DNA of 64,000 bases from Magnetospiraceae bacterium. GTDB lineage: Bacteria; Pseudomonadota; Alphaproteobacteria; Rhodospirillales; JBMYUJ01. Below are positions 910-33,782 of the stretch, in pieces (position 1 is the first letter of the stretch; every line of letters begins with the position of its first letter). The notes beneath the pieces were generated by a model. It was not told the origin of the DNA, made no database searches, and was given only the letters and a program-made list of their open reading frames with translations. The stretch lies in NCBI GenBank assembly GCA_049605255.1, contig JBMYUJ010000010.1:2199-66198 (forward strand). The letters run 5' to 3'. Made by a program: the position numbers and the translations under genes.

Positions 910-982
910 ACGCCGGTCATTCAGGCCGCCCCAAATCTACCACATGGTCGGCGGCAACAGTATTGTTGGAGAGTCGGTTGCC

Positions 983-3799: not shown

Positions 3800-3802
3800 G
3801 GA

Positions 3803-6633: not shown

Positions 6634-7592
6634 TCAGGCCGCACCACCGCACCCCAAGGGTAGCGGCCCACCTTGATGGATTTCAGGGCCTCCAGGTCTT
6701 CGACATCGACCACCGTCACGTCGCCGGACACGCCATTGGTGGTGAACAGCAGTTTCTCATCGGGGGTGAAGGCCATATGCCAGACCCGCCGCCCAACGAG
6801 AATATATTTGACCACCTCGTAGGTCTTGCGATCCACCACCGCGAGATGGTTGGCGGGGCCGAGCGCGACAAAGGCCCATTTTCCGTCTTGGGTGAGGTCG
6901 ATGCCCACCGGCTGTACCCGGTCTGGGTGGACACCTTTAATGGCGAAATTTAGGGTTTCGATCACCTGCCGGGTCGCCACATCGATCACCGCCACGGTGC
7001 CGCCAATTTCCGCCGATACCCAGAGCAATGACCCATCGCGCTCGAACACCGCATCGCGGGGGCGTTGGTCCACCAGGGTATTATCCACCAGTTCGAATTT
7101 TTCCGTATCGATCCAATGCACCATATTGGTGGTTTCAGAAGTGTTGACGGCATATTTCCCGTCCGGGCTCACCGCCATGCCCTCTGGTTCCACCCCCACA
7201 TCCACCTGCGCCAAAACCCGGGCGGTTTCCGTATCCACCACGGTGGCGATATTGTCGTCTTCATTGGAGATATAGAGATGGCGGTTGTTGGGATGCAGGG
7301 CGAACTGTTCCGGGTCGGCGCCGGAAGGGAGCTCGCGCAATTTCTCCAGGGTAACCGCATCGAAGACCTCCACGGTGTTATCGTCCGACGCACAGATATA
7401 GAGCTTGCTATGATCATGGCTGAGCAGGATGCCCCGGGGGCGCTGGCCCACCGCCACCGTGCGGGTGACCTCCAGGGTTTTTACATCGATGACGGAAACC
7501 GTGTTGTCTTTTTCATTGGTCACGTACACCGTCTGCGCTGCGGCGGGCGCAGCCAATCCGAATGTCACGGTAAGTGCAAAAAGATATTTCAT
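6630..7592 (-). CDS. PQQ-catabolism-associated YVTN beta-propeller protein (PedA2/LutB-like)
   Basis: Signal peptide; repeated YVTNE..NTVSVID / VG..P.G blades; ATG 7592 overlaps upstream stop. Confidence 0.9.
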   Translation of the reverse strand: MKYLFALTVTFGLAAPAAAQTVYVTNEKDNTVSVIDVKTLEVTRTVAVGQRPRGILLSHDHSKLYICASDDNTVEVFDAVTLEKLRELPSGADPEQFALHPNNRHLYISNEDDNIATVVDTETARVLAQVDVGVEPEGMAVSPDGKYAVNTSETTNMVHWIDTEKFELVDNTLVDQRPRDAVFERDGSLLWVSAEIGGTVAVIDVATRQVIETLNFAIKGVHPDRVQPVGIDLTQDGKWAFVALGPANHLAVVDRKTYEVVKYILVGRRVWHMAFTPDEKLLFTTNGVSGDVTVVDVEDLEALKSIKVGRYPWGAVVRPE

Positions 7593-8767
7593 TTGGGGCC
7601 TCCCTTGGCCAGGGCGCAACGGCTCTCCGGCCGATCGATGCCCAGCGTATCCATCTCCGATAGGGGGTGCAGAAAACCCTCCTGCGGGGATTGGCTCACC
7701 AGGGACCGGGCGGTGACCAGCGGGATCGGTTGGCGCAACTGGCCGTTCCACGGGCGGTAGGAGAGTTTCCGCCCCTTGAAGGCAGCCAGCGCGAACTCCG
7801 CGCTTTTGATAAAGGCGGTGAGGGCTGCGGGATCCGCCTCGGCAGTCCGCGTGGCGGCTTCCCCGACCGAGCGCACCGCAAGCCAGGCGGCGTAATCCCG
7901 CGCCGTCATCGGACGCCCGAATTTCTTCACGAACCGGCTTTGTAGTTGCGCCGCGCCCCATTGCTCGATCACCCGATGCCAGGGGGTGGGAACCAGCCCT
8001 TGGGTTCCGGCGACGGGCCGGGGCGCCCAAGATCGGAACAGGATGAAATCACCGAAATCGCCGATCTCGTCGGCCACCAGGATCACGTGATGGTCCTTGG
8101 CATCTTGGGTAAACAGGGGCATTTCCGCCTGGGCCGTGCGGCGGGCGTCATGATCGCCGGTCCATTTTTTCTCCGAGACGATCTTGGCCCCGAATTTCAT
8201 TGCCGCCCGGCGCAATGCCGCCGCGTAGAGCACATCTTCCGGGCGCGGGCCTTCGATCAGGAACAAGCGGGTCCAGCGCTTTCTGACCAGATATTGCATC
8301 AACGCATCGGCCAGCATCACCCGGCTCGGCAGGGTATGCAGCAGGTTGGCGCGGCATCTGGCCTCCCGCAGGTGAATATCCGGTGCCGCCACGTTGAAAA
8401 ACAGCAGACCCTCCGCGCCCGGGGCCTGCAACGCGGTTTCCAGCTTGGCGGCGATCAGGTCTGCGATGATAAAATTTCTGCCTGCCTTTTGAAAGGCCGT
8501 TACCGCTTCTGTCGGGTCATCCGCTACCGCCAGGGTCACCGGGGCGAGCGTATAATGCTGGTTGGTGAAGCGGCCCGTGGTGTTGTTGTCATCAATGCCC
8601 AGCAAGGCGCCGGCCAGGCCTTCATCAGCGGGCGGCGTATCCAGATTGGAAAGCGCCGGCGGGCGATCTCGCACCTGCCCCAGATAAGCAATGATTATCT
8701 CCATCGGCGCGGCCCGCGCGGTGGCGGTGCATAGGAGAAGGAGAACAAGACTGAAGAAAATACGCAT
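7589..8767 (-). CDS. ABC substrate-binding protein, PQQ alcohol dehydrogenase system (PedA1/LutA-like, LivJ-type fold)
   Basis: Signal peptide; DNNTTGRF, RPVAGTQGL.P..WH...EQWGAAQLQSRF, FKGRKLSYRPWNGQLRQP motifs. Confidence 0.87.
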   Translation of the reverse strand: MRIFFSLVLLLLCTATARAAPMEIIIAYLGQVRDRPPALSNLDTPPADEGLAGALLGIDDNNTTGRFTNQHYTLAPVTLAVADDPTEAVTAFQKAGRNFIIADLIAAKLETALQAPGAEGLLFFNVAAPDIHLREARCRANLLHTLPSRVMLADALMQYLVRKRWTRLFLIEGPRPEDVLYAAALRRAAMKFGAKIVSEKKWTGDHDARRTAQAEMPLFTQDAKDHHVILVADEIGDFGDFILFRSWAPRPVAGTQGLVPTPWHRVIEQWGAAQLQSRFVKKFGRPMTARDYAAWLAVRSVGEAATRTAEADPAALTAFIKSAEFALAAFKGRKLSYRPWNGQLRQPIPLVTARSLVSQSPQEGFLHPLSEMDTLGIDRPESRCALAKGGPK

Positions 8768-8799
8768 TCGATTGGTCAGACCCAGGCGCAAGATAATGC

Positions 8800-9255
8800 C
8801 TACTGAATGGTGATGGGGACCCGTTGGCTTTCCCCCCGGGAGCCGGGAATCCTTAGCTCATACCGTCCGGGCTTCACCGCCACGAATTTCAGTTCAATGA
8901 CCCCGGCATCATCGAACTCCACCGATTCCATGCCAAAGGGCCGGACCTCCAGATCGTTAATCACCACCTCATCCATCCAGACCGCGCGGAAAAAACCGGG
9001 GCCTTCCAAACCCAGTTCCGCCGAACCATCGCTTTTGATCGGCAACACATAATAGCCGCCAGACCGCAAGGTCAGGGGCGTGGCCGACAGGTCCAACCCC
9101 GAACCCAGCACGATTTCGGGCAGGGTTTCCTTGTTCTTGTTGGAGAGCAATCCGGCCAGGCCGAATTTCGGCGGGCAGTCGTCGGCCACGGCATTCCCGG
9201 CGATGCCTGCGGCGATCAATATGGTGAGGCCTATGGCCAAGAGGGGGTATTTCAT
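8800..9255 (-). CDS. Exported cupredoxin-like protein associated with PQQ dehydrogenase clusters
   Basis: Signal peptide; L.LRSG.YY.L.I and F...KPGRY beta-sandwich pattern; no Cys/His/Met copper ligand loop. Confidence 0.7.
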   Translation of the reverse strand: MKYPLLAIGLTILIAAGIAGNAVADDCPPKFGLAGLLSNKNKETLPEIVLGSGLDLSATPLTLRSGGYYVLPIKSDGSAELGLEGPGFFRAVWMDEVVINDLEVRPFGMESVEFDDAGVIELKFVAVKPGRYELRIPGSRGESQRVPITIQ

Positions 9256-9318: not shown

Positions 9319-9364
9319 AGAATAGCAGAATGGTCTTTGACGGTAAAATTGGACCAAAGTATCG
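9319..9364 (-). promoter_or_regulatory. Cluster palindromic box plus leftward -10 for the cupredoxin/Ped-ABC operon
   Basis: TTGGAC-CAAA-GTATCG at 9349-9364; minus-strand TATTCT at 9324-9319 (24-nt gap). Confidence 0.45.
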
Positions 9365-9747: not shown

Positions 9748-9792
9748 TGCGACTTTTAGGGCATAGCGGACCCCAGACTGGGTTGATACGTT
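9748..9792 (+). promoter_or_regulatory. Cluster palindromic box plus -10 element upstream of the AOR operon
   Basis: TGCGAC-TTTT-AGGGCA at 9748-9763 (reverse complement TGCCCT-AAAA-GTCGCA); TACGTT at 9787-9792 (23-nt gap). Confidence 0.55.
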
Positions 9793-9851
9793 AAACATTA
9801 CGTCAGGTTCCGGGACTCCCGTCTCCGGCCTGCACGAGGGAGGAGATTTTT

Positions 9852-10331
9852 ATGAATAAGGCGTTATTGATCACGGTTGACAAATGCACCGGTTGCAATC
9901 AGTGCGAGTTGGCGTGTTCGTATCATCACGAGGGTATTTTCAATCCGGCGAAATCTCGGATTCGGGTTTTTCATTTTCATGATCAAGGCCGGTATGTGGC
10001 CTACACTTGCACGCAATGCACCGAAGCCTGGTGTCAGCAAGCCTGCCCGGTCAACGCGATTACGGTCGACGGCGCGACGGGCGCGAAGGTCGTTTCCGCC
10101 TCGCGCTGCGTGGGCTGCAAGGTCTGCACCATCGCCTGCCCGTTCGGCACGGTGAACTACAATGCCTCTTCCGGCAAGGTGGATAAATGCGACCTGTGCG
10201 GCGGCGATCCGGCCTGCGCGAAGGCCTGCCCGACGGGTGCGATCACCTATATCGATGAAGAAGCGACCGGGTATGACCGGATGATGGCCTGGGCGGCGAA
10301 GTCGGACGTTGGCTCTGAAGCCACGGCATGA
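9852..10331 (+). CDS. aorA: 4x[4Fe-4S] ferredoxin subunit of aldehyde oxidoreductase
   Basis: CTGCNQCELAC, CTQC...CQQACP, CVGCKVCTIACP, KCDLC...PACAKACP; strong GGAGGAG RBS; directly upstream of AOR. Confidence 0.9.
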   Translation: MNKALLITVDKCTGCNQCELACSYHHEGIFNPAKSRIRVFHFHDQGRYVAYTCTQCTEAWCQQACPVNAITVDGATGAKVVSASRCVGCKVCTIACPFGTVNYNASSGKVDKCDLCGGDPACAKACPTGAITYIDEEATGYDRMMAWAAKSDVGSEATA

Positions 10332-10367
10332 TGACAGCGGCACGGGTCTTAGGGAGGATTTTATAAC

Positions 10368-12218
10368 ATGGCATGGGCTGGAAAGATTTTACGTGTCGAC
10401 CTGTCGGCTGGCACGTTCAAGACCGAACCGCTGAACATGGAATGGGCGGCGCGCTATTTGGGTCAACGTGGGTTGGCCAGCAAGTATCTGGTGGAAGAGA
10501 TCGATCCGAAGGTGGATCCCCTCTCGCCGGATAACAAATTGATCTTCGCCACGGGGCCGCTGACGGGCACGTCCGCGTCCACCAGTGCGCGTTATTCGGT
10601 GATCACCAAGGGACCGCTGACCGGGGCCATTGCCTGCTCCAACTCTGGCGGCTATTTCGGGCCGGAACTGAAATTCGCCGGCTGGGATATGATTATCTTC
10701 GAGGGCCGCGCGCCGAAGCCGGTCTATTTGTTGCTGCGCGATGGTGATGCCAAGCTGGTAGATGCCGAAGGCTCCGTGTGGGGCAAGTCGGTTTGGGAAA
10801 CCGAAGAAACCATCAAGAAGGCGCATCAGGACCCGCAAATCAAGGTGGCCTCCATCGGCGTGGCGGGCGAAAGCGGCGCGTTGTTTGCCTGTATCGTCAA
10901 CGATATGCACCGGGCGGCGGGCCGTTCCGGCGTTGGCACCGTGATGGGGTCGAAGAACCTGAAAGCGGTGGCGGTACGGGGCACCAAGGGCACCAAGGTG
11001 CGCGATACGGCGGCGTTTGACGCGGCCGTCACGGCGGGTAAGGCCGTGTTGGCGGGCAATGCGGTGACCGGCCAGGGGCTGCCCACCTATGGCACCCAGG
11101 TGCTGATGAATGTGATCAATGAAACCGGCGCCTTGCCGACCCATAACTGCAAAGACGTGCAGATGGAGAATGCCGACGCCATCGGCGGTGAAGCCATGCA
11201 TCGGCCCCGGGTATCCGACGGCAAGGCCAATCTGGTCCGCAACCAGGCCTGTTTCGGCTGCACCATCGGCTGTGGCCGGGTATCGAAGATCGATCCGACC
11301 CACTTCACCGTGAAGGATCGCCCGGAATATCAAAAGGCCACCGGCGGGTTGGAATATGAAGCGGCCTGGGCGTTGGGGGCGGCCACCGGCGTGGATGATT
11401 TGGAAGCGCTGACCTTCGCCAACTCCATCTGCAACGAGCAGGGCATGGACCCCATCTCCTTCGGGGCCACGGTTGCCGCGGCCATGGAGCTGTATGAAGG
11501 CGGCAAGATCACCAAGGAACAGACCGGCGGGGTGGAACTGAAGTTCGGTTCCGCGGCGGCCCTGGTCGCCATGGTGGAAGCCACCGGCAAGGGAGAGGGC
11601 TTCGGGGTCGAGATCGGCCTGGGCTCCAAACGCTTGTGCGAGAAATATGGCGATCCGGACCTGTCCATGACCGTCAAGGGTCAGGAATTCCCGGCTTACG
11701 ATCCGCGCGGCATTCAGGGCATGGGCTTGACTTATGCCACATCAAACCGGGGAGCCTGCCACCTGCGCAGCTACACGGTGGCGTCTGAAGTGCTGGGTAT
11801 CCCAGAAAAGACTGACCCGCTGGAAACCGACGGCAAGGCCGGTTTGGTGAAGGCGTTCCAAGACGCGACGGCGGCCTTTGACAGCGCGGGCATATGCCTG
11901 TTCACCTCCTTCGCCTGGACCCTGGAGGACGTGGCACCGCAAGTGGCGGCGGCCTGTGACGGGAACTGGACCGTGGATAGCCTGCTGGAAGCGGGTGAGC
12001 GGATCTGGAACCTGGAGCGCAAGTTCAACATGGATGCGGGCCTGACGGCGGCGGATGATACCCTGCCCAAGCGCCTGTTGAAGGATGCGGCGAAGACCGG
12101 TCCCGCCAAGGGCAAGGTTAACGGGCTCGAAAAAATGCTGCCCGAATATTACGAGCTGCGCGGTTGGACACCGGACGGGGTGCCGACCAACGAGACCCTA
12201 TCCCGGCTCAACCTGTAG
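10368..12218 (+). CDS. aorB: Tungsten-containing aldehyde:ferredoxin oxidoreductase family catalytic subunit
   Basis: GKILRVDLS, GPLTG, SNSGGYFGPELKFAGWD, AAGRSGVGTVMGSKNLKAV, CFGCTIGC, EYE, YATSNRGACH, YY.LRGW. Confidence 0.95.
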   Translation: MAWAGKILRVDLSAGTFKTEPLNMEWAARYLGQRGLASKYLVEEIDPKVDPLSPDNKLIFATGPLTGTSASTSARYSVITKGPLTGAIACSNSGGYFGPELKFAGWDMIIFEGRAPKPVYLLLRDGDAKLVDAEGSVWGKSVWETEETIKKAHQDPQIKVASIGVAGESGALFACIVNDMHRAAGRSGVGTVMGSKNLKAVAVRGTKGTKVRDTAAFDAAVTAGKAVLAGNAVTGQGLPTYGTQVLMNVINETGALPTHNCKDVQMENADAIGGEAMHRPRVSDGKANLVRNQACFGCTIGCGRVSKIDPTHFTVKDRPEYQKATGGLEYEAAWALGAATGVDDLEALTFANSICNEQGMDPISFGATVAAAMELYEGGKITKEQTGGVELKFGSAAALVAMVEATGKGEGFGVEIGLGSKRLCEKYGDPDLSMTVKGQEFPAYDPRGIQGMGLTYATSNRGACHLRSYTVASEVLGIPEKTDPLETDGKAGLVKAFQDATAAFDSAGICLFTSFAWTLEDVAPQVAAACDGNWTVDSLLEAGERIWNLERKFNMDAGLTAADDTLPKRLLKDAAKTGPAKGKVNGLEKMLPEYYELRGWTPDGVPTNETLSRLNL

Positions 12219-12227
12219 CCGGTTACC

Positions 12228-12272
12228 GGATCAACCCGGGCGGGGTGGTTCTTCTGCCCCGCCTGGGTATCC
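12228..12272 (+). other. GC-rich intergenic stem-loop within the AOR operon
   Basis: ACCCGGGCGGGG...GCCCCGCCTGGGT inverted repeat between aorB and the MoaD-like gene; no directly adjacent U-tract. Confidence 0.5.
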
Positions 12273-12308
12273 GATACTTTATTTCCGAGGGAGGTCGCGG
12301 AGACGACC

Positions 12309-12560
12309 ATGCAAGTGACCGTCAAACTGTTCGCCAGCTTGGGGCAGTTCCTGCCCGCATCCGCCAAGAACAATAAAGCCGAAATGGATGTTGCGGACGC
12401 TTCGACCGTAACGGCAACCCTTTCACAACTCGGCGTCCCGGAAGATCAGTGCCATTTGGTCTTGGTCAACGGCGCCTATGTGGCGCCCAGTAGCCGCGCC
12501 ACTCACGCTCTTAATGACAATGACACGCTTGCCGTCTGGCCTCCCGTCGCCGGGGGGTAA
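12309..12560 (+). CDS. MoaD/ThiS family sulfur carrier (AOR-associated)
   Basis: VKLFASL, VLVNG, C-terminal PPVAGG. Confidence 0.92.
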   Translation: MQVTVKLFASLGQFLPASAKNNKAEMDVADASTVTATLSQLGVPEDQCHLVLVNGAYVAPSSRATHALNDNDTLAVWPPVAGG

Positions 12561-12637
12561 GTCGCGGCATCGATGCGTGATCCTTCAGGCAGGCTGACAC
12601 CATCGGAACCTCCGATGCAGTAGGATGGGAATGAAAA

Positions 12638-14020
12638 ATGGCCAATATTTTCAAACGTATTTTCGGTGGTGGCGGCGCGAATGATGCAGCGCCTGCGCCG
12701 AAACCCGCGGCGCCTTCAGCGCCATCGCCCACACCCGCACCTGCTGCGGCGCCAACGCCGCGAACCGATTTGCCCGACCGGGTCGACCATCTGATTGTGG
12801 GTGCCGGACCGGCGGGCGTGGTTGCGGCGGAAACCTTGCGCAAATTCGCGCCGGACGCGACGATCCTGATGATCGGTAAGGAGCCTGAGCCGCCGTATTC
12901 GCGCATGGCGCTGCCCTATTTCCTGACCGGAAACGTGGATGGGCAGGGCACCTACCTGCGCCCGGACCCAGGTTATCTGGAAAGCAAACATATCGATTAT
13001 CGCATTGGCCGGGTTTCCACCGTGGATGGGGCCGGGCATAGCGTGACCTTGGAGGACGGCAGCACCGTGCGCTATGGCAAGCTGCTGCTGTGCACGGGCG
13101 CCCATCCCATCGCGCCGCCGATTCCAGGCCTGGAAGGGGACCGGGTCTGGAACTGCTGGACCCTGGACGACGCCCGGCAGATCGAACGATTGGCCCAGCC
13201 GGGCGCCCAAGTCGTATTGATGGGGGCCGGTTTCATCGGCTGCATCATCCTGGAGACCCTGGTGGAACGGGGCGTGAAGCTGACCGTGGTCGAAGCCGGA
13301 GACCGCATGGTGCCCCGCATGATGGACCCGATTAGCGGTGGCTTGATCAAGAAATGGTGCATCGAAAAAGGCATCGATGTGCGCACCAGCACCAAGGTGG
13401 ACCGGGTGGACCCGACCGCCGACGGGTTGCTGGTTCATCTGGATAACGGGGACCAACTACCTGCGCAACTCTTGGTGGTGTCTGCCGGTGTGCGGGCCTA
13501 TACGGAATTCTTGGAGGGCAGCGGGATCAGGGTCGATAGCGGGATTCTCATCGATGATCGCATGCAGACCAATATCCCGGATATTTATGCGGCGGGAGAT
13601 TGCGCGCAGGGCCTGGATTTCACCACCGGCGAGCATGAGGTGCATGCCATTCAGCCGACGGCCACCGAACATGGGCGGGTCGCGGCGCAGAATATGGCGG
13701 GGGTCGATACGGTCTATCAGGGCAGCTTGCAGATGAACGTTCTGGATACGGCGGGGTTGATCTCCGGCTCGTTCGGCCATTGGCACGGCACGGAGGATAC
13801 CTCCGAAGTGCTGGACGAAGAGAACTACAAGTTCCTTCGCCTGATTTTTGAGGGCAACCATCTGGTGGGCGCGGTCAGCCTGGGGCGGACCGATCATCTG
13901 GGTGCCATTCGCGGTTTGATCCAATCTGGCGCGCCGCTGGATGAGTGGAAGGACGTGCTGAAAGCCGACCCGCATCGGATCATGGATACCTATGTGGGTC
14001 TGACGGAAAAGGTCATTTAA
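12638..14020 (+). CDS. aorC: FAD/NAD(P)-dependent oxidoreductase subunit of AOR, with N-terminal extension
   Basis: GAGPAG, EPEPPYSR, GAGFIG, TNIPDIYAAGDCA; operon with aorAB. Confidence 0.85.
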   Translation: MANIFKRIFGGGGANDAAPAPKPAAPSAPSPTPAPAAAPTPRTDLPDRVDHLIVGAGPAGVVAAETLRKFAPDATILMIGKEPEPPYSRMALPYFLTGNVDGQGTYLRPDPGYLESKHIDYRIGRVSTVDGAGHSVTLEDGSTVRYGKLLLCTGAHPIAPPIPGLEGDRVWNCWTLDDARQIERLAQPGAQVVLMGAGFIGCIILETLVERGVKLTVVEAGDRMVPRMMDPISGGLIKKWCIEKGIDVRTSTKVDRVDPTADGLLVHLDNGDQLPAQLLVVSAGVRAYTEFLEGSGIRVDSGILIDDRMQTNIPDIYAAGDCAQGLDFTTGEHEVHAIQPTATEHGRVAAQNMAGVDTVYQGSLQMNVLDTAGLISGSFGHWHGTEDTSEVLDEENYKFLRLIFEGNHLVGAVSLGRTDHLGAIRGLIQSGAPLDEWKDVLKADPHRIMDTYVGLTEKVI

Positions 14021-14029
14021 CGGCGGTTT

Positions 14030-14107
14030 TTCGACCAAAGTTGGGCGTTGCAATGCGCTAATCCGACCAAAGTCGAGCGGAAAGGAGTCAAGCCAGTCGC
14101 GTATAAC
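14030..14107 (+). promoter_or_regulatory. Tandem cluster palindromic boxes plus -10 upstream of pedF
   Basis: TTCGAC-CAAA-GTTGGG (14030-14045) and TCCGAC-CAAA-GTCGAG (14062-14077); TATAAC at 14102-14107 (24-nt gap). Confidence 0.7.
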
Positions 14108-14160
14108 GGATACCAGACAACGGGCAACAGGGCCTGGGGCGAAACGAGGGTAGACGGACA

Positions 14161-14598
14161 ATGATGCGACGCGGTTTTGGGTTTTCTCTGACAGTTTTGA
14201 TCGGATTGGCTTTGGGGTCTCAAGCCTACGGCCATGGTGACGTGACCCCGCAAGCGGTGGATACCACGGGCCTGCCGGAGCTGGGCGATGAATGGGCGGA
14301 AACCAATCCTTTCCGGGATAGCGCGGAATATAAGGAACGGGCAATCGAGATCGGCTCTTCCGCCTACAATCAGAATTGCGCGCGGTGCCATGGCTTGGAA
14401 GCGATTTCCGGCGGTATCGCGCCCGACCTGAGATATTTGGAAGAAGATTTCGACGGCGATGAATGGTTCAAGGAGCGGGTCCGGGGCGGTGCTGTTCGCG
14501 ATGGCAAGGTCTATATGCCGAAGTTCGAAGGCGTTATCAGCCAAGAAGGTTTGTGGGCCATCCGCACCTATATCGACTCCCGCTCGGATGAGGATTGA
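14161..14598 (+). CDS. pedF: Cytochrome c-550 PedF/ExaB, electron acceptor of PQQ-ADH
   Basis: HGDVTPQAVDT.GLP.LG, YNQNCARCHGLEAISGGIAPDLRYL, G.VYMP.F. Confidence 0.92.
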   Translation: MMRRGFGFSLTVLIGLALGSQAYGHGDVTPQAVDTTGLPELGDEWAETNPFRDSAEYKERAIEIGSSAYNQNCARCHGLEAISGGIAPDLRYLEEDFDGDEWFKERVRGGAVRDGKVYMPKFEGVISQEGLWAIRTYIDSRSDED

Positions 14599-15496
14599 TC
14601 CCCTGAGCTATTCCGGGCAGTATCGCCACCTCGGCTTTGTTTTCCTCGCCTTTCTGTTTGTAATGATAAGCGCGATACCCCCCCGGGCTGTCGCGCTTAC
14701 GTTTGATGAGATCCAAGAAAAAGGCGAGATCATCGTCGCCGTCTATCGGGATTTTCCGCCGTTCTCTTACCGAGATGCAAATGGCACGTTGGTGGGGATC
14801 GACGTGGACATCGCCGCGCAGATTGCGAATTCCTTAGATGTGCGGCTCACCGTCTTTGAACTGACCGCCGATGAGACCGTGCAGGACGATCTGCGCAACG
14901 CGGTCTGGAAGGGTCATTACCTGGGCGGGTTGGTGGCCGATGTGATGCTGCATGTGCCTTATGATCGGGCTTTTTCTCTGCAAAACAACCAGGTATTTTT
15001 CTTCGGCGCCTATCTGGAGGAAGCCATCCACTTGACCTGGAATCCGGATACGGTGGGCGCCAAGCCGACCTTGGCGGTCTTCCGCTTCGAAAAAATCGGC
15101 GTCGAATTGGATACCTTGGCGGACTTCGCCCTGACATCCTTCAACGGCGGTATGATCCGCGAGAATGTGCTGCATTACCGCACCATCGAGGAAGCCGCCC
15201 AAGCCATGCGGGCGGGCGAGGTGCAGGCCATCCTGGCCACCCGCAGCCAGCTCGATCACGCCTTCCACGCGGATGCTGTTAAACCCCCGGTGGGCCCCGT
15301 TCTGCTGTCTGGCGTTGCCAAGCCGAAATGGCTGATCGGCGCGGCGGTCAAGCATACCTACCGACAACTGGGGTATGCGGTGGGGGATATCCTGGCCGCC
15401 ATGGTGAATGATGGCACCATGGAACAGATCTTCGCCAAACATGGCATTACCTACCGCCCCCCGCCGGACTCTCTGCTCGGCGCCACCGCACAATAG
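14588..15496 (+). CDS. Periplasmic substrate-binding family 3 protein (PedG/MoxJ-like role inferred)
   Basis: VAVYRDFPPFSY, GIDVDIA, ADETVQDDLRNAVWKGHYLG, ADVMLHVPYD; follows pedF. Confidence 0.82.
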   Translation: MRIDPLSYSGQYRHLGFVFLAFLFVMISAIPPRAVALTFDEIQEKGEIIVAVYRDFPPFSYRDANGTLVGIDVDIAAQIANSLDVRLTVFELTADETVQDDLRNAVWKGHYLGGLVADVMLHVPYDRAFSLQNNQVFFFGAYLEEAIHLTWNPDTVGAKPTLAVFRFEKIGVELDTLADFALTSFNGGMIRENVLHYRTIEEAAQAMRAGEVQAILATRSQLDHAFHADAVKPPVGPVLLSGVAKPKWLIGAAVKHTYRQLGYAVGDILAAMVNDGTMEQIFAKHGITYRPPPDSLLGATAQ

Positions 15497-15513
15497 CCGC
15501 GTCACGCCCCCCA

Positions 15514-15558
15514 TTCGACCAAGGTCGGATATGGGGCTTTATCCGTATTTGCTAATAT
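15514..15558 (+). promoter_or_regulatory. Cluster palindromic box plus -10 upstream of the SoxYZ-like gene
   Basis: TTCGAC-CAAG-GTCGGA at 15514-15529; TAATAT at 15553-15558 (23-nt gap). Confidence 0.7.
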
Positions 15559-15584
15559 CCCCTGAATAACATTGGGGATGTGCT

Positions 15585-16379
15585 ATGGTTTGGAAGGCAG
15601 CAATAGCCTGCGCGCTAACAGTTGCGCTTGTCAGTCCGCGCGCGAGCGCCGCGGCGGAAACCATCCCCGATCCGCTGCAATCTCCCTATTGGGACGTGAT
15701 GCAGGACGTGATGTTTGATGCGGCCCCCGTGGTGATGGATGACCGGGTGCGCGTAATCGCGCCCACCACCGCCGAAGATAATCTTCAGGTGCCGGTATCG
15801 ATAGACGCGTCGAGTTTGGGGAAAGTTCAGGAACTCATCGTGTTTGCCGACCTCAACCCCATCAGCAAGGTGGCCCATTTCTATCCGGAGCGGGCGCGGC
15901 CCTACCTGGAGCTGCGCCTGAAGGTAAACCAGGCAACTCCCATCCGGGCGGCGGCGCTGACCGAAGATGGCGTCTGGCATGTGGGTGGTGTTTGGGTGGA
16001 CGCGGCTGGTGGTGGCTGTACAACCCCCTCCATGGGCATGACCAGCGGGGATTGGACGGAGACTTTGGGGCATGTGCAGGCCCGGGTCTGGGATAGGAAA
16101 GCGCAGGGCGATCGGTTGCGGTTCCGGGTGATGCATCCCATGGATACCGGGTTGGTGGACGGCATTCCGGCCTTTTACATCGAAACCTTGACGGTGACGG
16201 ATGCAGAAGGCGCTGCGATCGCGCGGCTCGAAACCTTTGAGCCGGTCATGGAAAACCCGGTCTTCAGCATCGAGGTAGACCCGTCCCATCGGGCGGCGAA
16301 GGGCTATACGGTTATGGGCGTCGACAATAACGGAAACCAGGTAAATGCCTTCGTTCCCCGGGATGGCAACGGTTCCTGA
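15585..16379 (+). CDS. Quinoprotein dehydrogenase-associated SoxYZ-like carrier (fused)
   Basis: Signal peptide; AED...VPV, AAGGGC swinging-arm motif, HPMDTGLVDGIPAFYIE SoxZ-like part. Confidence 0.88.
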   Translation: MVWKAAIACALTVALVSPRASAAAETIPDPLQSPYWDVMQDVMFDAAPVVMDDRVRVIAPTTAEDNLQVPVSIDASSLGKVQELIVFADLNPISKVAHFYPERARPYLELRLKVNQATPIRAAALTEDGVWHVGGVWVDAAGGGCTTPSMGMTSGDWTETLGHVQARVWDRKAQGDRLRFRVMHPMDTGLVDGIPAFYIETLTVTDAEGAAIARLETFEPVMENPVFSIEVDPSHRAAKGYTVMGVDNNGNQVNAFVPRDGNGS

Positions 16380-17343
16380 CGTGGCCCGGGCCCCGCGCGT
16401 TATCCCGCTTTTTATCGTTTGGGTATGCCTATTTGGGGCTTTCCTGTTCGCGGCTGGAACGGCCTTTTCCGCCGAAAAATCCTATAATCTGAGTCCCCGT
16501 GAAGTGGCGCCGGGCACCTTTGTTTTCGAAGGCCGTCAGGAATATTTTTCCTTCGAAAACGGGGGCAATATTGTCAACACCGGGTTCATCGTCACCGAAA
16601 CCGGGATCATCGTGATCGATACAGGGCCGTCACGGCTCTATGGCGAGCAGATGCGCGCCGCGATCCGGCAGATCAGTGTCAAGCCCATCGTCAAGGTGTT
16701 CAATACCCATCACCATCCAGACCATTTCCTTGGCAACCAGGCCTATTTCGATACGCCCATTACCGCCCTATCTACCACTCGGGAGGGAATTGTCCAGGAG
16801 GGGGACACGTTTTTGCAGAACATGTACCGCCTGGCCGGGGATTTCATGCGCGGGACGGAGGTGTTTGCCCCAACGGAATCCATTTCAGTATCGGTGCAAA
16901 CCATCGCAGGCCGGGAACTGCGTTTCTACGCCTTGCAGGGGCACGATCATGCGGACCTGGCGATTTTCGATCCAACCACGGGTGTCTTGTTCGCCGGGGA
17001 TCTGGTGTTCAAATTTCAGGCGCCCACCACGCCGCACGCCCATATTGGCAATTGGTTGGAGGCCTTGGCGCAATTAGAGGAAATTCCGTTCCGCGTGATC
17101 GTGCCTGGTCATGGCCCGGTGCATCGTGACCAAAGCGGCATTGCGGAAACCCGCGATTATCTCACTTGGCTGGAAGCGCACCTGCGCGAAGCCCTGGCGG
17201 CGGGCGCCGATATGATGGAAACCATGGCTTCGCCCCTACCAGACCGCTTCGCCGACTGGGCGGTCGTCAAAGAAGAATACGCGCGGTCGGTCAGCCATCT
17301 TTTTCCGGCTCTCGAAGCTGAGATTCTGCCGCAGGTGAACTGA
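16363..17343 (+). CDS. Quinoprotein relay system zinc metallohydrolase (SoxH-like MBL fold)
   Basis: NGGNIVN, VIDTGPS, THHHPDHFLGN, GH, GDLVF, VPGHG; start uncertain (16363 or nearby). Confidence 0.87.
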   Translation: MATVPDVARAPRVIPLFIVWVCLFGAFLFAAGTAFSAEKSYNLSPREVAPGTFVFEGRQEYFSFENGGNIVNTGFIVTETGIIVIDTGPSRLYGEQMRAAIRQISVKPIVKVFNTHHHPDHFLGNQAYFDTPITALSTTREGIVQEGDTFLQNMYRLAGDFMRGTEVFAPTESISVSVQTIAGRELRFYALQGHDHADLAIFDPTTGVLFAGDLVFKFQAPTTPHAHIGNWLEALAQLEEIPFRVIVPGHGPVHRDQSGIAETRDYLTWLEAHLREALAAGADMMETMASPLPDRFADWAVVKEEYARSVSHLFPALEAEILPQVN

Positions 17344-17367
17344 CGCGCCGCGCCGAGCGGGCGCCCC

Positions 17368-17412
17368 TACGACTTTTGACGAATTGTTTTCCACCGTTCT
17401 GTCAACGAGAAT
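17368..17412 (+). promoter_or_regulatory. Cluster palindromic box plus -10-like element upstream of PQQ-ADH
   Basis: TACGAC-TTTT-GACGAA at 17368-17383; GAGAAT at 17407-17412 (23-nt gap). Confidence 0.6.
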
Positions 17413-17487
17413 TCCAAAATCAGCAATGGGGATTGTTGAGCGTCGTCTCACTCCTCGAGGCGCGCGAAACAAAGGGAGGAAAATCAT

Positions 17488-19230
17488 ATGAAATCGAACT
17501 ATCGGCTGCTTTTTGGCGCGACGGTATTGAGTGCCGCGCTTGGGTTGGCGATGGCACCTGTAAATGCCGCGGTAACCGAAGATGACGTTGCCAAAGATGC
17601 GACAATTACCAGCCAGATCGTCACCAACGGCATGGGCCGCGATGCACAGCGTTTCAGCCCGCTGGACCAAATCAACAAATCTACTGTGAAAAAACTGGTT
17701 CCCGCCTGGGCGTTCTCCTTCGGCGGTGAAAAGCAGCGGGGCCAGGAAGCCCAACCGCTGATCTATGATGGCGTGATGTATGTGACCGCGTCCTATTCGC
17801 GGGTCTTCGCCATCGACCTGGCGACCGGTGCCGAGCTCTGGCAATACGATGCGCGCCTGCCCGATGGCATCATGCCCTGCTGTGACGTGATCAACCGTGG
17901 CGGCGCCTTGTACGGCGACAATTTCTATTTCGGCACCTTGGATGCCAAGCTGGTCGCCTTGGACCGAAAGACGGGCAAGGTGAAATGGAAAAAGACCATG
18001 GGCGATTACAAGGCGGGTTACTCCTTCTCCGCCGCGCCCATGATCGTCAAGGGCCGGGTGATTACCGGCGTTTCCGGCGGTGAATTCGGCATTGTCGGCT
18101 CGGTGGATGCCTGGGATGCAGAAACCGGTGAACATGTCTGGCGCCGTCCGACCATTGAAGGCCATGTTGGTATGCTCAATGGTAAGGAAAGCACCATGAC
18201 CGGCACCAAGAATGCGACTTGGCCCGGTGATATGTGGCAGTTCGGGGGGGGCGCGACCTGGCTGGGTGGCACCTATGACGAAAGCACCGATACCATTATT
18301 TATGGCACCGGCAACCCGGCCCCTTGGAACTCGCACCTGCGCAAGGGCGATAACCTGTATGCGGCGTCTCGTATCGGTCTCAACCCCGATACCGGCGAGA
18401 TCAAATGGCACTACCAGACGACCCCCTGGGAAGGCTGGGATTTCGATGGTGTGAACGAGGTCGTGCCGTTTGAAATGGATGGCAAGAAGCTTGCCGCGAC
18501 CGCGGACCGGAACGGCTTTTTCTATGTTTTGGACCGCACAAATGGTACCCTTGTGAATGCGACGCCCTTCGTAAAACAGATTTCCTGGGCAAAGGAAATC
18601 GACCTGAAATCGGGCCGTCCCGTTTACATCGACGAAAACCGGGCAGGTGATCCGTCGGTCTCTTCCAAGGATGGCAAGGGCAAGGCGATCTTTGCCGTGC
18701 CGGCCTTCCTGGGCGCCAAGAACTGGATGCCCATGGCCTACAGCAAAAACACCGGCCTGTTCTACGTTCCGTCGAACGAATGGGGCATGGACCTGTGGAA
18801 CGAACCAGTCACCTATAAAAAGGGCGCGGCTTATCTGGGCGCGGGCTTCACCATTAAGCCGCTGTTCGAAGAGTATATTGGTTCCCTGAAAGCCATCGAT
18901 CCGAAAGATGGATCGGTTAAATGGGAACTGAAGAATAACGCACCGCTTTGGGCGGGCGTTATGACCACCGCCGGTGGACTGGTGTTCACGGGTAATCCGG
19001 AGGGCGAATTCCTCGCCTTGGACGATGAGTCCGGCGAGGTGCTGTGGAAGTTCCAGACCGGGTCTGGAATTGTGAGCCAACCCGTTACGTGGGATCAAGA
19101 TGGCGTACAATATGTCGCAGTGGTTTCCGGGTGGGGTGGTGCCGTTCCCCTGTGGGGCGGTGATGTTGCCAAGCGGGTTAAGTTCCTTAACCAAGGTGGA
19201 TCCGTTTGGGTGTTCAAACTCGCCAACTAA
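17488..19230 (+). CDS. pedH: PQQ-dependent alcohol dehydrogenase, lanthanide-dependent type (PedH/ExaF-like)
   Basis: Signal peptide; [14 protein letters not shown], vicinal [30 protein letters not shown] (D318-x-D320), W-motif propeller repeats. Confidence 0.9.
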
Positions 19231-19251: not shown

Positions 19252-19290
19252 ATGGGGGGAGGACATCCGATGGTTCTCCCCCATCTTTTT
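19252..19290 (+). terminator. Probable intrinsic terminator after PQQ-ADH
   Basis: ATGGGGGGAGG...TCTCCCCCAT stem followed by CTTTTT. Confidence 0.65.
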
Positions 19291-19362
19291 AAGAAAGCAA
19301 CGTGGGGCCCTCGAATGGACATTTCAGCAAACTGCCTGGGCGAAAGAGAGATTGGGGAAGGT

Positions 19363-20019
19363 ATGGCCAGAGTATTGATTGCCGAGGATCACCCACTGTT
19401 TCGGGATGCCCTCCACCAAGTGGTGGATGATTCCCTTGATAGCACCGATGTCGTCGAAGCGGGGACTTTGGCGGAAGCACAAGAAATCGTGGGGTCCGAT
19501 CCGGACCTGGATTTGATCTTGCTGGATATCGATTTGCCCGGCGCGGAAGGGTTTTCGGGCCTGATTTCGATCCGCAACCTGGCGCCATCCATTCCGGTGG
19601 TCGTGGTCACCGGATCGGCCAATAATTCGGCGCTGAAAAAAGCCTTGGCCTGTGGCGCCATGGGGTTCATTCCAAAATCACTGGCCCGCGAGCGCATGGT
19701 CGGCGCCATTCGCAGCGTGATCGAAGGCGAAATTTTCTCGCCGGATGCGGCGGACCTCAGCGTCTCTTCGGAGGAGCAGGGGGCGGATCCGGCGGCGCAG
19801 GACAAGGTGGCGACGCTGACCCAAGCGGAACTGCGCGTTTACGAATTGCTGGCGCAAGGCAAGCCGAACAAGATCATCGCCTACGAATTGGATATCAAGG
19901 AATCAACGGTGAAGGCGCATATCTCGTCCATCTTGCGGAAAATGGGTGTGTTCAGCCGGACCCAGGCCGTGTTGCTGGCCAACAAGATCGTGTTCGGGCC
20001 CGTGATGCCGCGCCATTAA
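19363..20019 (+). CDS. NarL/LuxR-family response regulator (ErbR/AgmR-like)
   Basis: IAEDHPLFR, LILLDIDLP (Asp intact), GFIPKS, LT..E..V..LLAQG..NK.IAYELDI.ESTVKAHIS HTH. Confidence 0.92.
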   Translation: MARVLIAEDHPLFRDALHQVVDDSLDSTDVVEAGTLAEAQEIVGSDPDLDLILLDIDLPGAEGFSGLISIRNLAPSIPVVVVTGSANNSALKKALACGAMGFIPKSLARERMVGAIRSVIEGEIFSPDAADLSVSSEEQGADPAAQDKVATLTQAELRVYELLAQGKPNKIIAYELDIKESTVKAHISSILRKMGVFSRTQAVLLANKIVFGPVMPRH

Positions 20020-20049
20020 GCGGCTTGGCCCGTTGATCTGCCGCGGCGT

Positions 20050-22293
20050 TTATTCCGGGCAGATATGGGCGATGAGCGAACGGAGGCGCGCCGGCCGCAA
20101 CGGTTTGCGCAACAGGTGGAAACCGGCCTCCTGAGAGCGCTGCAGCACATCGTCTGTCCGGTCAGCGGTAATCACCACCGTGGGAATGGGGCCGCCCAAA
20201 TAATCCGCCACAGCATGGGCGAGGCGAATACCGTCATCCCCATCATCCAAGTGATAATCCACCAATAAAACCTGCGGCGGCAGCGCTTCGCGTTGCAGCT
20301 TCTTGAACAGCTCCTTCTCCGTTCCCGCCACAATGGGGTGGCATTTCCATCCTGCCAGCAGGCTCTCCATGCCGCCGAGAATGGCCTTGTCATTGTCGAT
20401 AACAGCGATGCGGATATTTTCCATGGTCGGCCGTTGGGAAACCACCGGTGTCAGGACCGGGTCCGCGGCGACCTCAGGGCTGAGGGGGACGGTGATGAAG
20501 AACATGGAGCCCTGGCCCGGCTTGGAGACGACTCCGATGGGGTGTTGCAACATGCGGGCGATCCGCTCCACGATGGCCAGCCCCAGCCCCGCGCCTTTTT
20601 CGCCCTGTTTGATTCCCGTATCCAGTTGCCGGAATTCTTCGAAAATCTCGGCCACGCGATCTTGTGGAATACCCACGCCGGTATCCCACACTTGAATGTC
20701 CACCGCATCACCCCGGCGTCGGCATCCCACCAGAATCCGCCCCGCTTCGGTGTAGCGGGTGGCATTGACGATAAAATTGCGTAAAACACGGGTCAGCAGC
20801 CGGACATCAGAGCGAACATGCAAGGAGGTATCCACCAACTGAATCTTCAGCCCGTGGTGATGCGCCGCGGGTCGGAGCTCCAGCACCAACCGTTTCAACA
20901 GATCCTGCAAGTGAATCTGGGTTACTTCCGTCGGCACCACGCCCGCATCCAGCTTGGAAATATCCAGAAGGGCGTTCAGCACATCCTCGATGCTGCGCAT
21001 GGACCCGTCGATGCTATCCACCAAAACGCGGTTTTCAGAGGTATGCTTCCGTTCCGCCAGGGCAGTAATGAAAAGCCGCGCGGCGTTGATGGGCTGCAAT
21101 AGGTCATGGCTGGCGGCGGCAAGAAACTTGGTTTTACTGACATTCGCCTCTTCCGCGGCGTTTTTCGCCACCCGCAGGGCTTTTTCCACCTCGGTTCTTT
21201 CGACGATTTCCTGGCTGAGCTGTTGGTTCAATTCGGTCAGCTTCAAGGTGCGTTCCGCCACGCGCCGTTCCAGCGATACCTTGGCTTCTTGCAGGGCGAG
21301 GGCGGATTGCCGGGTTTGCGTAACGTCGGTATAGGTGTTGACGAAGCCACCATCGGGCATGGGGGCGCGGCGTACCTCCAAAATGGTGCCGGTGGGCCGC
21401 TGATATTCTAAGGTGAACCGGGAAAAAGTGAGGGCGCGGGCGAGGCGCTTTTCAACGGCCTCCCGATTGTCTTCCTGAAACTCACCGCGCTCGGCCAGGA
21501 AAGTAAGGATTTTTTCATAATGCATGCCCGCCTGAATGAACCAGTCGGGAAGATCCAAAAGCGCCTTGAAACGCTCGTTCCAAGCAACGAGGTTCAGGTT
21601 CGCGTCATACACCGACACCCCTTGCGAGAGATTGTCCAGCGTGGATTGCAGCAGAATGGATTTCTCCATCAGCTCCCGCTCCCGCCGTTCCTTTTCGCTG
21701 GTTTTGACCTCGGTGATATCCGTATAGAGACCGACCACGCCCCGGTCGGCGGTGGTGCGTTCGTTAATTTGCAGCCAGCGCCCATTACTGAGCTTGCAGG
21801 TGAAGGGGTCGCCGGGATTCTGGTGATGCAGCATGCGCTGGCGCAGCCATTCTTCCGGGTCGTCCTCGGCATCGGCGATCATGCCGCGCTCGACCGTCGC
21901 CCGCGATAGATCGGCGAACTCTACTCCCTCATAGAGATGCGCGCCGGCCTTGATCCAGAATTCCTTGAAGCGGGCATTCCACAGCACAAGCCGGTCATTA
22001 TAATCGAACAGGGCGAATCCTTCGGAAATGCTTTCGATGGCTTCACGCAAATGTTGTTGTGCCGTTTCCGCCTCACGCCGCGCGATTTCCAAGTCATGTA
22101 ATGCTGCTTCCAGCGCGCGGGTTCTTTCCTGCACCTTGTCTTCCAGCAGGATCGCTGCTTGGAACATGGAATAGGCGCTGCCCTGGACATCTGTTTTGCG
22201 TTCAACCTGGTCCATCAAGACCGAGACGATCTTGCCCAGCTTCTGGATTTTTTCTTCGGGGGTGCCTTTGACGCTCAGATGGGGAAGCGGCAT
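20050..22293 (-). CDS. Hybrid sensor histidine kinase with two PAS-like domains and receiver (NahK/ErcS-like)
   Basis: KTKFLAAASHDLLQP H-box, NATRYT, WDTGVGI, GAGLGL, C-terminal LLVDYHLD receiver; no TM segments. Confidence 0.92.
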   Translation of the reverse strand: MPLPHLSVKGTPEEKIQKLGKIVSVLMDQVERKTDVQGSAYSMFQAAILLEDKVQERTRALEAALHDLEIARREAETAQQHLREAIESISEGFALFDYNDRLVLWNARFKEFWIKAGAHLYEGVEFADLSRATVERGMIADAEDDPEEWLRQRMLHHQNPGDPFTCKLSNGRWLQINERTTADRGVVGLYTDITEVKTSEKERRERELMEKSILLQSTLDNLSQGVSVYDANLNLVAWNERFKALLDLPDWFIQAGMHYEKILTFLAERGEFQEDNREAVEKRLARALTFSRFTLEYQRPTGTILEVRRAPMPDGGFVNTYTDVTQTRQSALALQEAKVSLERRVAERTLKLTELNQQLSQEIVERTEVEKALRVAKNAAEEANVSKTKFLAAASHDLLQPINAARLFITALAERKHTSENRVLVDSIDGSMRSIEDVLNALLDISKLDAGVVPTEVTQIHLQDLLKRLVLELRPAAHHHGLKIQLVDTSLHVRSDVRLLTRVLRNFIVNATRYTEAGRILVGCRRRGDAVDIQVWDTGVGIPQDRVAEIFEEFRQLDTGIKQGEKGAGLGLAIVERIARMLQHPIGVVSKPGQGSMFFITVPLSPEVAADPVLTPVVSQRPTMENIRIAVIDNDKAILGGMESLLAGWKCHPIVAGTEKELFKKLQREALPPQVLLVDYHLDDGDDGIRLAHAVADYLGGPIPTVVITADRTDDVLQRSQEAGFHLLRKPLRPARLRSLIAHICPE

Positions 22294-22294
22294 G

Positions 22295-33485: not shown

Positions 33486-33487
33486 CC

Positions 33488-33772: not shown

Positions 33773-33782
33773 GGCGCAGCGC

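What the first reader, a model, noticed from the sequence alone, without database searches (positions are those of the whole stretch)
9748..19230. Two-rare-metal alcohol oxidation module: lanthanide PQQ-ADH coupled to a tungsten aldehyde oxidoreductase
Seen: aorA-aorB-moaD-aorC sits inside the ped-like cluster, between the ABC operon and pedF, and carries the cluster box. The only ADH here has WDFDGVNE. No Ca-type (D-x-S/T/A) ADH and no NAD-dependent aldehyde dehydrogenase is in the window. Established: the extra Asp marks Ln3+-dependent PedH/ExaF/XoxF enzymes; AorABC of Aromatoleum is a W-bis-pterin enzyme that reduces NAD+; Pseudomonas ped/exa clusters use an NAD-ALDH (PedI/ExaC) for this step. 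Inference: alcohol to aldehyde (periplasm, Ln, cytochrome c) to acid (cytoplasm, W, NADH or ferredoxin) as one co-regulated pathway suited to low oxygen. I do not know of this pairing being characterised, but cannot check the literature.
Basis: partly seen in the sequence, partly recalled or inferred. Interest (0 to 1): 0.85.

Follow-up and report, generated by a model that had tools for sequence, protein, structure and literature searches.

The report
Tungsten enzyme replaces aldehyde dehydrogenase slot
Genes for a tungsten-type aldehyde-oxidising enzyme sit inside a gene cluster for lanthanide-type alcohol oxidation, in the place where relatives carry an ordinary NAD aldehyde dehydrogenase, so this bacterium likely needs two rare metals to turn alcohols into acids; the enzyme also carries an unusual tail that may tie it to the membrane.

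Summary
Observation confirmed. aorA-aorB-moaD-aorC (closest solved structure: Aromatoleum AorABC, 8C0Z) lies between the ped ABC operon and pedF, 5.3 kb from a PedH-type PQQ-ADH (WDFDGVNE), the only one found in this 95.5%-complete genome. No ExaC/PedI was found; TupA-like and pqq genes were. In 34 ADH-bearing same-order genomes, aor is ped-linked in 12 and exaC lies within 15 kb of the ADH in 16, never both; but these are only 4-5 independent contrasts (not significant). Linked aorA promoters carry the cluster box (9/10 versus 4/23 unlinked), though the window's own site is weak. New here: 11 of 14 ped-linked AorC subunits carry an amphipathic-looking N-terminal peptide plus linker, versus 2 of 71 others; a membrane anchor is inferred. 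Likely role: W-AOR replaces NAD-ALDH at the aldehyde step. PQQ-ADH-to-AOR coupling was already proposed from genomes (Cycloclasticus) and is visible in Methyloversatilis locus tags; this scan noted the same swap on other DNA (e1-2411037). New variant; interest 0.55.

The parts
944..1399 (+). c-type cytochrome conserved in ped clusters, box-like site at 863-878
   Evidence: NF043008 weak hit; recurs in related clusters; site 13.3 bits
1400..1972 (-). PQQ-catabolism CXXCW rhodanese-type protein (PP_2666-like)
   Evidence: TIGR03865 over cut-off
2085..4510 (+). second ABC transporter (NMT1-type binding protein, permease, ATPase) that travels with ped clusters
5087..8791 (-). PedA/B/C-type ABC operon: binding protein, beta-propeller, ATPase, permease (lanthanide uptake in P. 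putida)
   Evidence: TIGR03863, 03866, 03864, 03861 over cut-off; function from PMC12997753 passages
8800..9255 (-). exported 151-aa protein without family hit, conserved in ped clusters
   Evidence: no hit; homologues
9347..9362 (.). strong cluster-box site in the divergent intergenic region, near the ABC operon start
   Evidence: 19.5 bits, second best in genome
   Evidence: 7.8 bits, shuffle p 0.09 with independent training; orthologous sites stronger
9852..10331 (+). aorA, four-cluster polyferredoxin with the C-terminal filament helix
   Evidence: 8c0z_C E 1.3e-69, alignment to residue 155; four Cys motifs
10368..12218 (+). aorB, bis-pyranopterin (predicted tungsten) catalytic subunit
   Evidence: 8c0z_A E 1e-295; Cys295/298/302/509 kept
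12309..12560 (+). MoaD-like AorD, C-terminal GG
   Evidence: PF02597, translation
12638..12784 (+). AorC N-terminal tail: amphipathic-looking 11-residue peptide plus Pro/Ala linker, absent from the characterised AorC
   Evidence: 8c0z_E aligns from residue 50; conserved in 12 homologues; disordered in AF2 model
12638..14020 (+). aorC, FAD/NAD subunit
   Evidence: 8c0z_E E 3.2e-125
14032..14075 (.). two box sites before pedF
14161..14598 (+). pedF/exaB cytochrome c550
   Evidence: TIGR04494 212 bits over cut-off 122; CARCH
14459..15496 (+). PedG-like periplasmic binding protein (true start probably downstream of pedF)
   Evidence: PF00497
15516..17343 (+). box at 15516, SoxYZ-like carrier (15585-16379) and SoxH-like hydrolase (16345-17343)
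   Evidence: TIGR04557, TIGR04558 over cut-off
17370..17381 (.). box site before the ADH
   Evidence: 15.7 bits
17488..19230 (+). PedH/ExaF-type PQQ alcohol dehydrogenase, signal peptide, vicinal Cys131-132, D-x-D
19252..23461 (.). AgmR/ErdR-like response regulator (+), ErcS'/PedS1-like hybrid kinase (-), FIST/NosP protein (-)
   Evidence: NosP over cut-off; ErdR and NahK best hits below cut-off

Best explanation
This is a PedH-type alcohol-oxidation cluster in which a three-subunit AorABC aldehyde oxidoreductase occupies the position that relatives fill with the NAD aldehyde dehydrogenase ExaC, so it likely performs the aldehyde-to-acid step with a predicted tungsten cofactor. Steps: (1) the exported PQQ enzyme, predicted to bind a lanthanide through its extra Asp, oxidises a short alcohol in the periplasm and passes electrons to PedF cytochrome c550 (inferred from PedH/ExaF); (2) aldehyde crosses the inner membrane; (3) cytoplasmic AorB oxidises it to the acid, electrons run through AorA clusters to AorC FAD and NAD+ (inferred from the Aromatoleum enzyme); (4) the AorC tail would hold the Aor(AB)nC filament at the membrane where the aldehyde arrives (speculative, about 40%); (5) the cluster's own response regulator would switch on aor with the other ped operons through the shared box (inferred). 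Shown: gene content, order, motifs, distribution. Not shown: metals, activities, induction, localisation.
For: No ExaC over cut-off in this genome: best 394 bits vs 900; 6 of 8 ALDHs scanned are pathway specialists over cut-off, two more hits are PutA- and ProA-like by length and N-terminus (my reading). Of 34 ADH-bearing genomes among 301 of the order, 12 have aor next to ped genes (9 within 15 kb of the ADH; G018 beside pedF in a split cluster; G071 and G263 at contig ends) and 16 have exaC within 15 kb, none both. ExaC not found in 11 genomes, 9 of which have linked aor, against 3 of 23 with ExaC. Exact slot swap: G229 has exaC between the ABC binding protein and pedF, where the window, G092 and G133 have aor; within one genus 3 genomes are aor-type and 5 exaC-type. 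Box matrix trained on 155 regions from loci without aor: 9 of 10 linked aorA upstream regions at p<=0.05, 4 of 23 unlinked; in 7 of 7 genomes with both copies the linked one scores higher; in 4 the preceding gene is co-directional, so the site cannot belong to a divergent operon. Tail in 11 of 14 ped-linked AorC and 2 of 71 other AorC of the order; it pointed to two further ped-linked loci (G286, G015). TupA-like operon, 2 MoeA, pqqC and neighbours present. In M. universalis FAM5 the W-AOR gene (locus tag 590040) neighbours xoxJ3/G3/F3 and mdh2 (590042-51) and is 2.6-fold higher on methanol than methylamine, q 0.17 (PMC5023235 passages).
Against: Kinship: only 4-5 independent contrasts on the ADH tree; none runs the other way but the sign test cannot reach 0.05. 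PedH/PedE oxidise short aldehydes themselves and pedI deletion has little phenotype in P. putida (PMC12997753 passages). The genome has other candidates: an unclassified ALDH beside an Fe-ADH (C87), two acylating acetaldehyde dehydrogenases, one Mo-hydroxylase-family enzyme, a second AorB (55%, C28), and is 95.5% complete. In Rhodocyclaceae-type loci aor and exaC co-occur (L010, L013, L069, L313, L315, L316) and the box is absent before aorA (1 of 14). The window's own aorA site is weak (p 0.09). AlphaFold gives the tail no helix (pLDDT <50); its hydrophobic moment ranks 18th of 449 windows in the protein; 3 linked AorC lack it. TupA hit is below the NCBIfam cut-off (229 vs 400) and not found in one linked genome (G006); a ModA is also present.
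Confidence: 0.68

Rival explanations
1. The PQQ enzyme oxidises both alcohol and aldehyde in the periplasm; AorABC is a co-induced safety valve that removes aldehyde leaking into the cytoplasm and is dispensable, so tungsten is helpful but not required.
For: PedH/ExaF act on acetaldehyde and butyraldehyde, pedI loss is mild (PMC12997753; PMC11996626); AORs are usually described as detoxifying (PMC12096430 and 10.1101/2023.01.23.525143 passages); PMC12510462 names both options. Compatible with all synteny and box data.
Against: 9 of 11 genomes without ExaC keep a linked aor; G185 and G239 keep a second, cluster-specific operon with its own tailed AorC although AorB is 99.7% identical to a stand-alone copy, which suggests demand for extra, regulated capacity.
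Confidence: 0.22
2. aor is a general housekeeping operon of this order that landed in the cluster without functional link.
For: AorC found in 97 of 301 genomes of the order, mostly without the ADH; linked AorB do not form a clade (AU p 2e-75); pairing absent in 80 metagenome loci and 20 other Alphaproteobacteria.
Against: Same slot upstream of pedF/pedG in 6 families, mutual exclusion with exaC, box only at linked copies, tail almost only in linked copies; 10 of 37 Rhodocyclaceae-type genomes also linked within 15 kb.
Confidence: 0.05
3. AorABC works here mainly as an H2:NAD+ or acid-reducing enzyme that supplies NADH, because PQQ alcohol oxidation yields none, or it carries molybdenum.
For: The Aromatoleum enzyme uses H2 as donor (PMC9295118 abstract start; PMC12096430 passages); hypFDE lie 12-17 kb away; ModA present.
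Against: It replaces an aldehyde dehydrogenase positionally; aldehyde oxidation itself yields NADH; the Aromatoleum enzyme had W and no Mo (PMC6365974); TupA found in 12 of 13 linked genomes.
Confidence: 0.05

Closest known systems
AorABC(DE) of Aromatoleum aromaticum EbN1 (PDB 8C0Z; Class III WOR, clade 87; PMC6365974, PMC13328260)
   Same: All three subunits are best matches to 8C0Z chains; cluster Cys, AorA filament helix and a MoaD-like gene are kept.
   Different: Embedded in a ped cluster with the box; moaD before aorC; no aorE-like second gene seen; AorC has a 49-residue N-terminal tail that 8C0Z chain E lacks; known role there is aromatic aldehyde removal.
ped cluster of Pseudomonas putida KT2440 / exa cluster of P. 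aeruginosa (PMC12997753)
   Same: nosP, pedS1, agmR, rhodanese, pedABC, pedF, pedG, soxYZ-like, soxH-like and pedH all have counterparts.
   Different: No Ca-type PedE, no PedI/ExaC, no PedS2/R2 switch genes seen in the cluster; aorABC instead.
xoxF3/mdh2 cluster with W-AOR ('Ald') of Methyloversatilis universalis FAM5 (PMC5023235)
   Different: Betaproteobacterial; has a second PQQ-ADH (Mdh2) and AldB; the paper does not discuss linkage or lanthanides in the passages read; no box or tail found in such loci.
Cycloclasticus pentane pathway, PQQ-ADH then W-AOR (PMC12510462)
   Same: Same two-step chemistry proposed from genomes.
   Different: No gene linkage, lanthanide mention (0 hits for 'lanthan'), or ExaC replacement in the passages read.
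Amphipathic membrane-targeting sequences of MinD/MreB (PMC8155659 passages; resemblance of the AorC peptide is recalled)
   Same: Short basic/hydrophobic terminal peptide on a flexible linker.
   Different: Here on a redox enzyme subunit; membrane binding untested.

Membership tests
Ln-dependent PedH/ExaF PQQ-ADH | Type I PQQ-ADH closer to PedH than to ExaA, XoxF, MxaF | tested here: met
   828 bits to 6zcv vs 680 to 1flg and <=372 to XoxF/MxaF
Ln-dependent PedH/ExaF PQQ-ADH | Extra Asp (D-x-D) aligned with the PedH ligand | tested here: met
   WDFDGVNE identical in alignment; Asp shown essential in ExaF (10.1101/2020.02.25.964783 passages)
Ln-dependent PedH/ExaF PQQ-ADH | Signal peptide, vicinal Cys, cognate c550, pqq genes | tested here: met
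   (signal peptide read by eye)
Ln-dependent PedH/ExaF PQQ-ADH | Activity needs Ln3+ | not testable with these tools
   needs purified enzyme
Class III WOR (AorABC) | AFOR_N + AFOR_C large subunit with four cluster Cys | tested here: met
Class III WOR (AorABC) | Four-cluster small subunit and FAD/NAD subunit in the operon | tested here: met
Class III WOR (AorABC) | Tungstate transporter in genome | tested here: inconclusive
   TupA is the only NCBIfam match but 229 < 400 bits; permease and ATPase adjacent
Class III WOR (AorABC) | W content and aldehyde:NAD+ activity | not testable with these tools
   needs ICP-MS and assay
ped/exa cluster | pedF, pedG, soxYZ/soxH-like, pedABC, FIST-kinase-regulator | tested here: met
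   against the gene table of PMC12997753
ped/exa cluster | NAD aldehyde dehydrogenase PedI/ExaC | tested here: not met
   not in cluster or found in genome; filed as a variant
Membrane-targeting amphipathic helix | Conserved basic/hydrophobic terminal peptide on a disordered linker | tested here: met
   unique in own genome's 7349 ORFs by the motif
Membrane-targeting amphipathic helix | Helical structure and lipid binding | tested here: inconclusive
   no helix in AF2 model, pLDDT <50; moments 0.39-0.71; binding not testable

The most novel reading that the evidence does not exclude
A dedicated lanthanide-plus-tungsten alcohol-to-acid pathway that several lineages of one alphaproteobacterial order assembled by placing AorABC in the ExaC slot under the ped regulator, with a specialised AorC whose N-terminal peptide tethers the tungsten-enzyme nanowire to the inner membrane to catch aldehyde released by the periplasmic enzyme. 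Growth on alcohols would then depend on both La3+ and tungstate.
Probability: 0.3. Interest if true: 0.8.

Novelty: new variant of a known kind. Interest (0 to 1): 0.55.

Why it matters
The 2026 WOR classification says only five of 92 clades have a member with a defined physiological role and only one Class III enzyme is characterised (PMC13328260); a review calls further AOR functions unclear (PMC12096430). This locus gives a specific, testable role: the aldehyde step of periplasmic alcohol oxidation, in organisms that also encode aerobic oxidases. It predicts a growth phenotype needing two metals seldom added to media, which bears on culturing and on marine alcohol turnover. The AorC tail offers a handle on where the AOR filament sits in the cell and a sequence marker for alcohol-linked AORs.

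Tried and rejected
Simple consensus search for the box: at chance with 2 mismatches; generic repeat and sigma-70/terminator scans uninformative. First box matrix shared training regions with five test regions, so it was redone on aor-free loci; only the second is used. Single origin of linked AorB: rejected; linked copies group with same-genus stand-alone copies, and the direction (copied in, or copied out with later homogenisation) is unresolved, since in one family the tailed AorC looks ancestral. Link to nitrogen fixation via low-potential electrons: not supported. Tungstate transporter as the switch between aor and exaC: not supported, TupA in 12 of 13 and 12 of 16. Selection for Ln-type partner: cannot be shown. 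Expression: no RNA holder listed. 16S primer sites not found in the assembly, so the order is not named by a call; closest AorB titles are Rhodospirillales/Azospirillum. The careful AorB tree did not finish; quick trees were used. Literature: 10 searches; none returned a paper describing aor in the exaC slot, the box or the tail. Subscription papers and supplements were not seen; the neighbourhood tables of PMC13328260 (supplement not opened) and proteomic work on Methyloversatilis may hold the linkage.


Full report
What is there. The window lies on contig C10 of a 3.26-Mb assembly, 95.5% complete. From 0.9 to 23.5 kb it holds a complete ped-type cluster: a cytochrome c, CXXCW rhodanese, two ABC systems, pedF, a PedG-like protein, SoxYZ- and SoxH-like genes, the PQQ-ADH, a response regulator, hybrid kinase and FIST protein, matching the P. 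putida gene table (PMC12997753, passages). Between the divergent ABC operon and pedF lie aorA, aorB, a MoaD-like gene and aorC, each subunit best matching Aromatoleum AOR, PDB 8C0Z, with the cluster cysteines and the AorA filament helix kept. The ADH is closest to PedH and has the D-x-D ligand, shown essential for La use in ExaF (bioRxiv 2020.02.25.964783, passages).

Genome context. Only one PQQ-ADH passes the family cut-off. Twelve ALDH matches exist elsewhere; of 8 scanned, 6 are specialists over cut-off (HpaE, SSADH, two hydroxymuconic semialdehyde dehydrogenases, MmsA, piperideine carboxylate dehydrogenase), one is unclassified and one a fragment. None approaches the ExaC cut-off (394 vs 900 bits). 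A TupA-like operon (below cut-off), two MoeA, ModA and pqqC with neighbours are present; a box-like site precedes the pqq operon (15.7 bits). Possible substitutes exist: a second AorB, an ALDH beside an Fe-ADH, two acylating acetaldehyde dehydrogenases, one Mo-hydroxylase.

Conservation. Of 301 same-order genomes, 34 have a close ADH. Reading coordinates and the fetched loci: aor is within 15 kb of the ADH in 9, abuts pedF in a split cluster in 1, and sits beside ped genes at contig ends in 2 (12 in all, 6 families); exaC is within 15 kb in 16 others; none has both within 15 kb (G185 has exaC at 25 kb). ExaC was not found in 11 genomes, 9 with linked aor; 3 of 23 ExaC genomes have linked aor (Fisher p 2e-4, kin not independent). 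G229 has exaC in the very slot the window gives to aor; one genus has 3 aor-type and 5 exaC-type members. On the ADH tree there are 5 changes and 4-5 independent pairs, none opposite, not significant. Beyond the order: 7 of 80 AorB-anchored GTDB loci had a PQQ dehydrogenase within 10 kb (5 D-x-D, 1 Ca-type, 1 distant); in the family around a Thauera genome, 37 of 64 AorB genomes have the ADH and 10 are within 15 kb, all 10 with a D-x-D enzyme in the locus, but exaC often stays. Negative: 0 of 80 ADH-anchored metagenome loci (19 with full 10-kb flanks) and 0 of 20 AorB-bearing Alphaproteobacteria outside the order, only one of which had a PedH-type gene. The pairing is recurrent but a minority arrangement.

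Regulation. A 16-bp motif emerges from upstream regions of ped genes in loci lacking aor (155 regions). It scores at p<=0.05 before 9 of 10 linked and 4 of 23 unlinked aorA; in all 7 genomes with both kinds the linked copy scores higher. The exception is the window itself (7.8 bits, p 0.09), whose strong site lies 500 nt upstream, near the ABC operon. The matrix is not specific genome-wide (37 sites >=14 bits). It is absent before betaproteobacterial linked aorA (1 of 14). That the adjacent AgmR/ErdR-like protein binds it is inference.

A new feature. AorC begins with 49 residues missing from the characterised subunit: a short basic/hydrophobic peptide and a Pro/Ala linker. Among 151 distinct AorC scored by script, plus two corrected by eye, the tail is in 11 of 14 ped-linked and 2 of 71 other copies of the order (one on a 5-kb contig of an ADH-positive, ExaC-less genome), and in 1 of 67 from other groups. 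I fetched N-termini for only part of the 115 hits, choosing those whose open frame was long enough for a tail, and many unlinked loci are short. In G185 and G239 the linked and stand-alone AorB are 99.7% identical while only the linked AorC is tailed. The tail led to two more ped-linked loci (G286, G015). AlphaFold leaves it disordered. Since AorC caps the Aor(AB)n filament (bioRxiv 2023.01.23.525143, passages), a membrane anchor of the MinD/MreB kind is my reading; the resemblance is recalled and untested.

History. Linked AorB are not one clade (AU p 2e-75); they sit with same-genus stand-alone copies. Repeated recruitment, or old linkage with homogenisation, both fit.

Mechanism. Likely: alcohol to aldehyde by the Ln-PQQ enzyme with electrons to c550; aldehyde to acid by W-AorABC with electrons to NAD+; co-induction through the box. 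The main rival is that the ADH does both steps and AOR is a dispensable detoxifier, as PedI seems to be. The two-metal pairing follows from Ln-type ADHs being the default in this order (33 of 34). Low-oxygen use is unshown: the genome has cbb3 and aa3 oxidase motifs (recalled motifs) and nifH, but nifH does not track the swap; the Aromatoleum enzyme has a 1-h half-life in air (PMC13328260).

Prior knowledge. Passages read: PMC5023235 (AOR beside xoxF3/mdh2, 2.6-fold up on methanol, q 0.17), PMC12510462 (PQQ-ADH then W-AOR proposed), PMC6365974, PMC13328260, PMC12096430, PMC11996626, PMC12997753, PMC8155659; PMC9295118 only as abstract start. Ten searches found no paper on the slot swap, box or tail; supplements and subscription papers were not seen. 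The scan's notes hold the same swap on another genome and a related pairing in Gammaproteobacteria. Verdict: real, conserved, a new variant of known parts; interest 0.55.

Noticed in passing
L091 (G000:C28:34918-36750): Second AorB paralogue, 55% identical, at a contig end; many relatives also carry this second type.
   Followed up: partly
L100, L209, L211, L213 (genus g19): Stand-alone aorAB without adjacent aorC; separate aorC copies lie on other contigs or far away in these genomes.
   Followed up: partly
L194, L196, L198, L202, L204 (family f34): A PedH-related subtype with altered residues after D-x-D (WDYD[SA][IM][ST]E), possibly a different substrate range.
   Followed up: no
L004:11974-13443; L260: Tailed AorC without ped genes nearby (Cocleimonas MAG; second copy in G286).
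   Followed up: partly
window:127-834 and C10 upstream of the window: Exported 235-aa protein with no family hit, after a MotA/ExbB-like three-gene group just outside the window (read by eye).
   Followed up: no
window:23839-24273; 31095-36013: Bacteriohemerythrin next to the cluster; hypF, hypD, hypE hydrogenase maturation genes further on.
   Followed up: no
window:36684-42593: MbnH-like di-heme enzyme (38106-39284) among several ORFs without strong family hits.
   Followed up: no
L096 (G018): A roughly 20-kb polysaccharide island splits the ped cluster between the regulator and the kinase.
   Followed up: partly
G018:C1:2005797; G043:C10:20040: tupA lies about 11 kb from the ped-linked aorB in these two genomes.
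   Followed up: no
L090 (G000:C5:13770-14033): C-terminal remnant of an ALDH gene, not ExaC-like by eye, with a box-like site 290 nt upstream inside the previous gene.
   Followed up: partly
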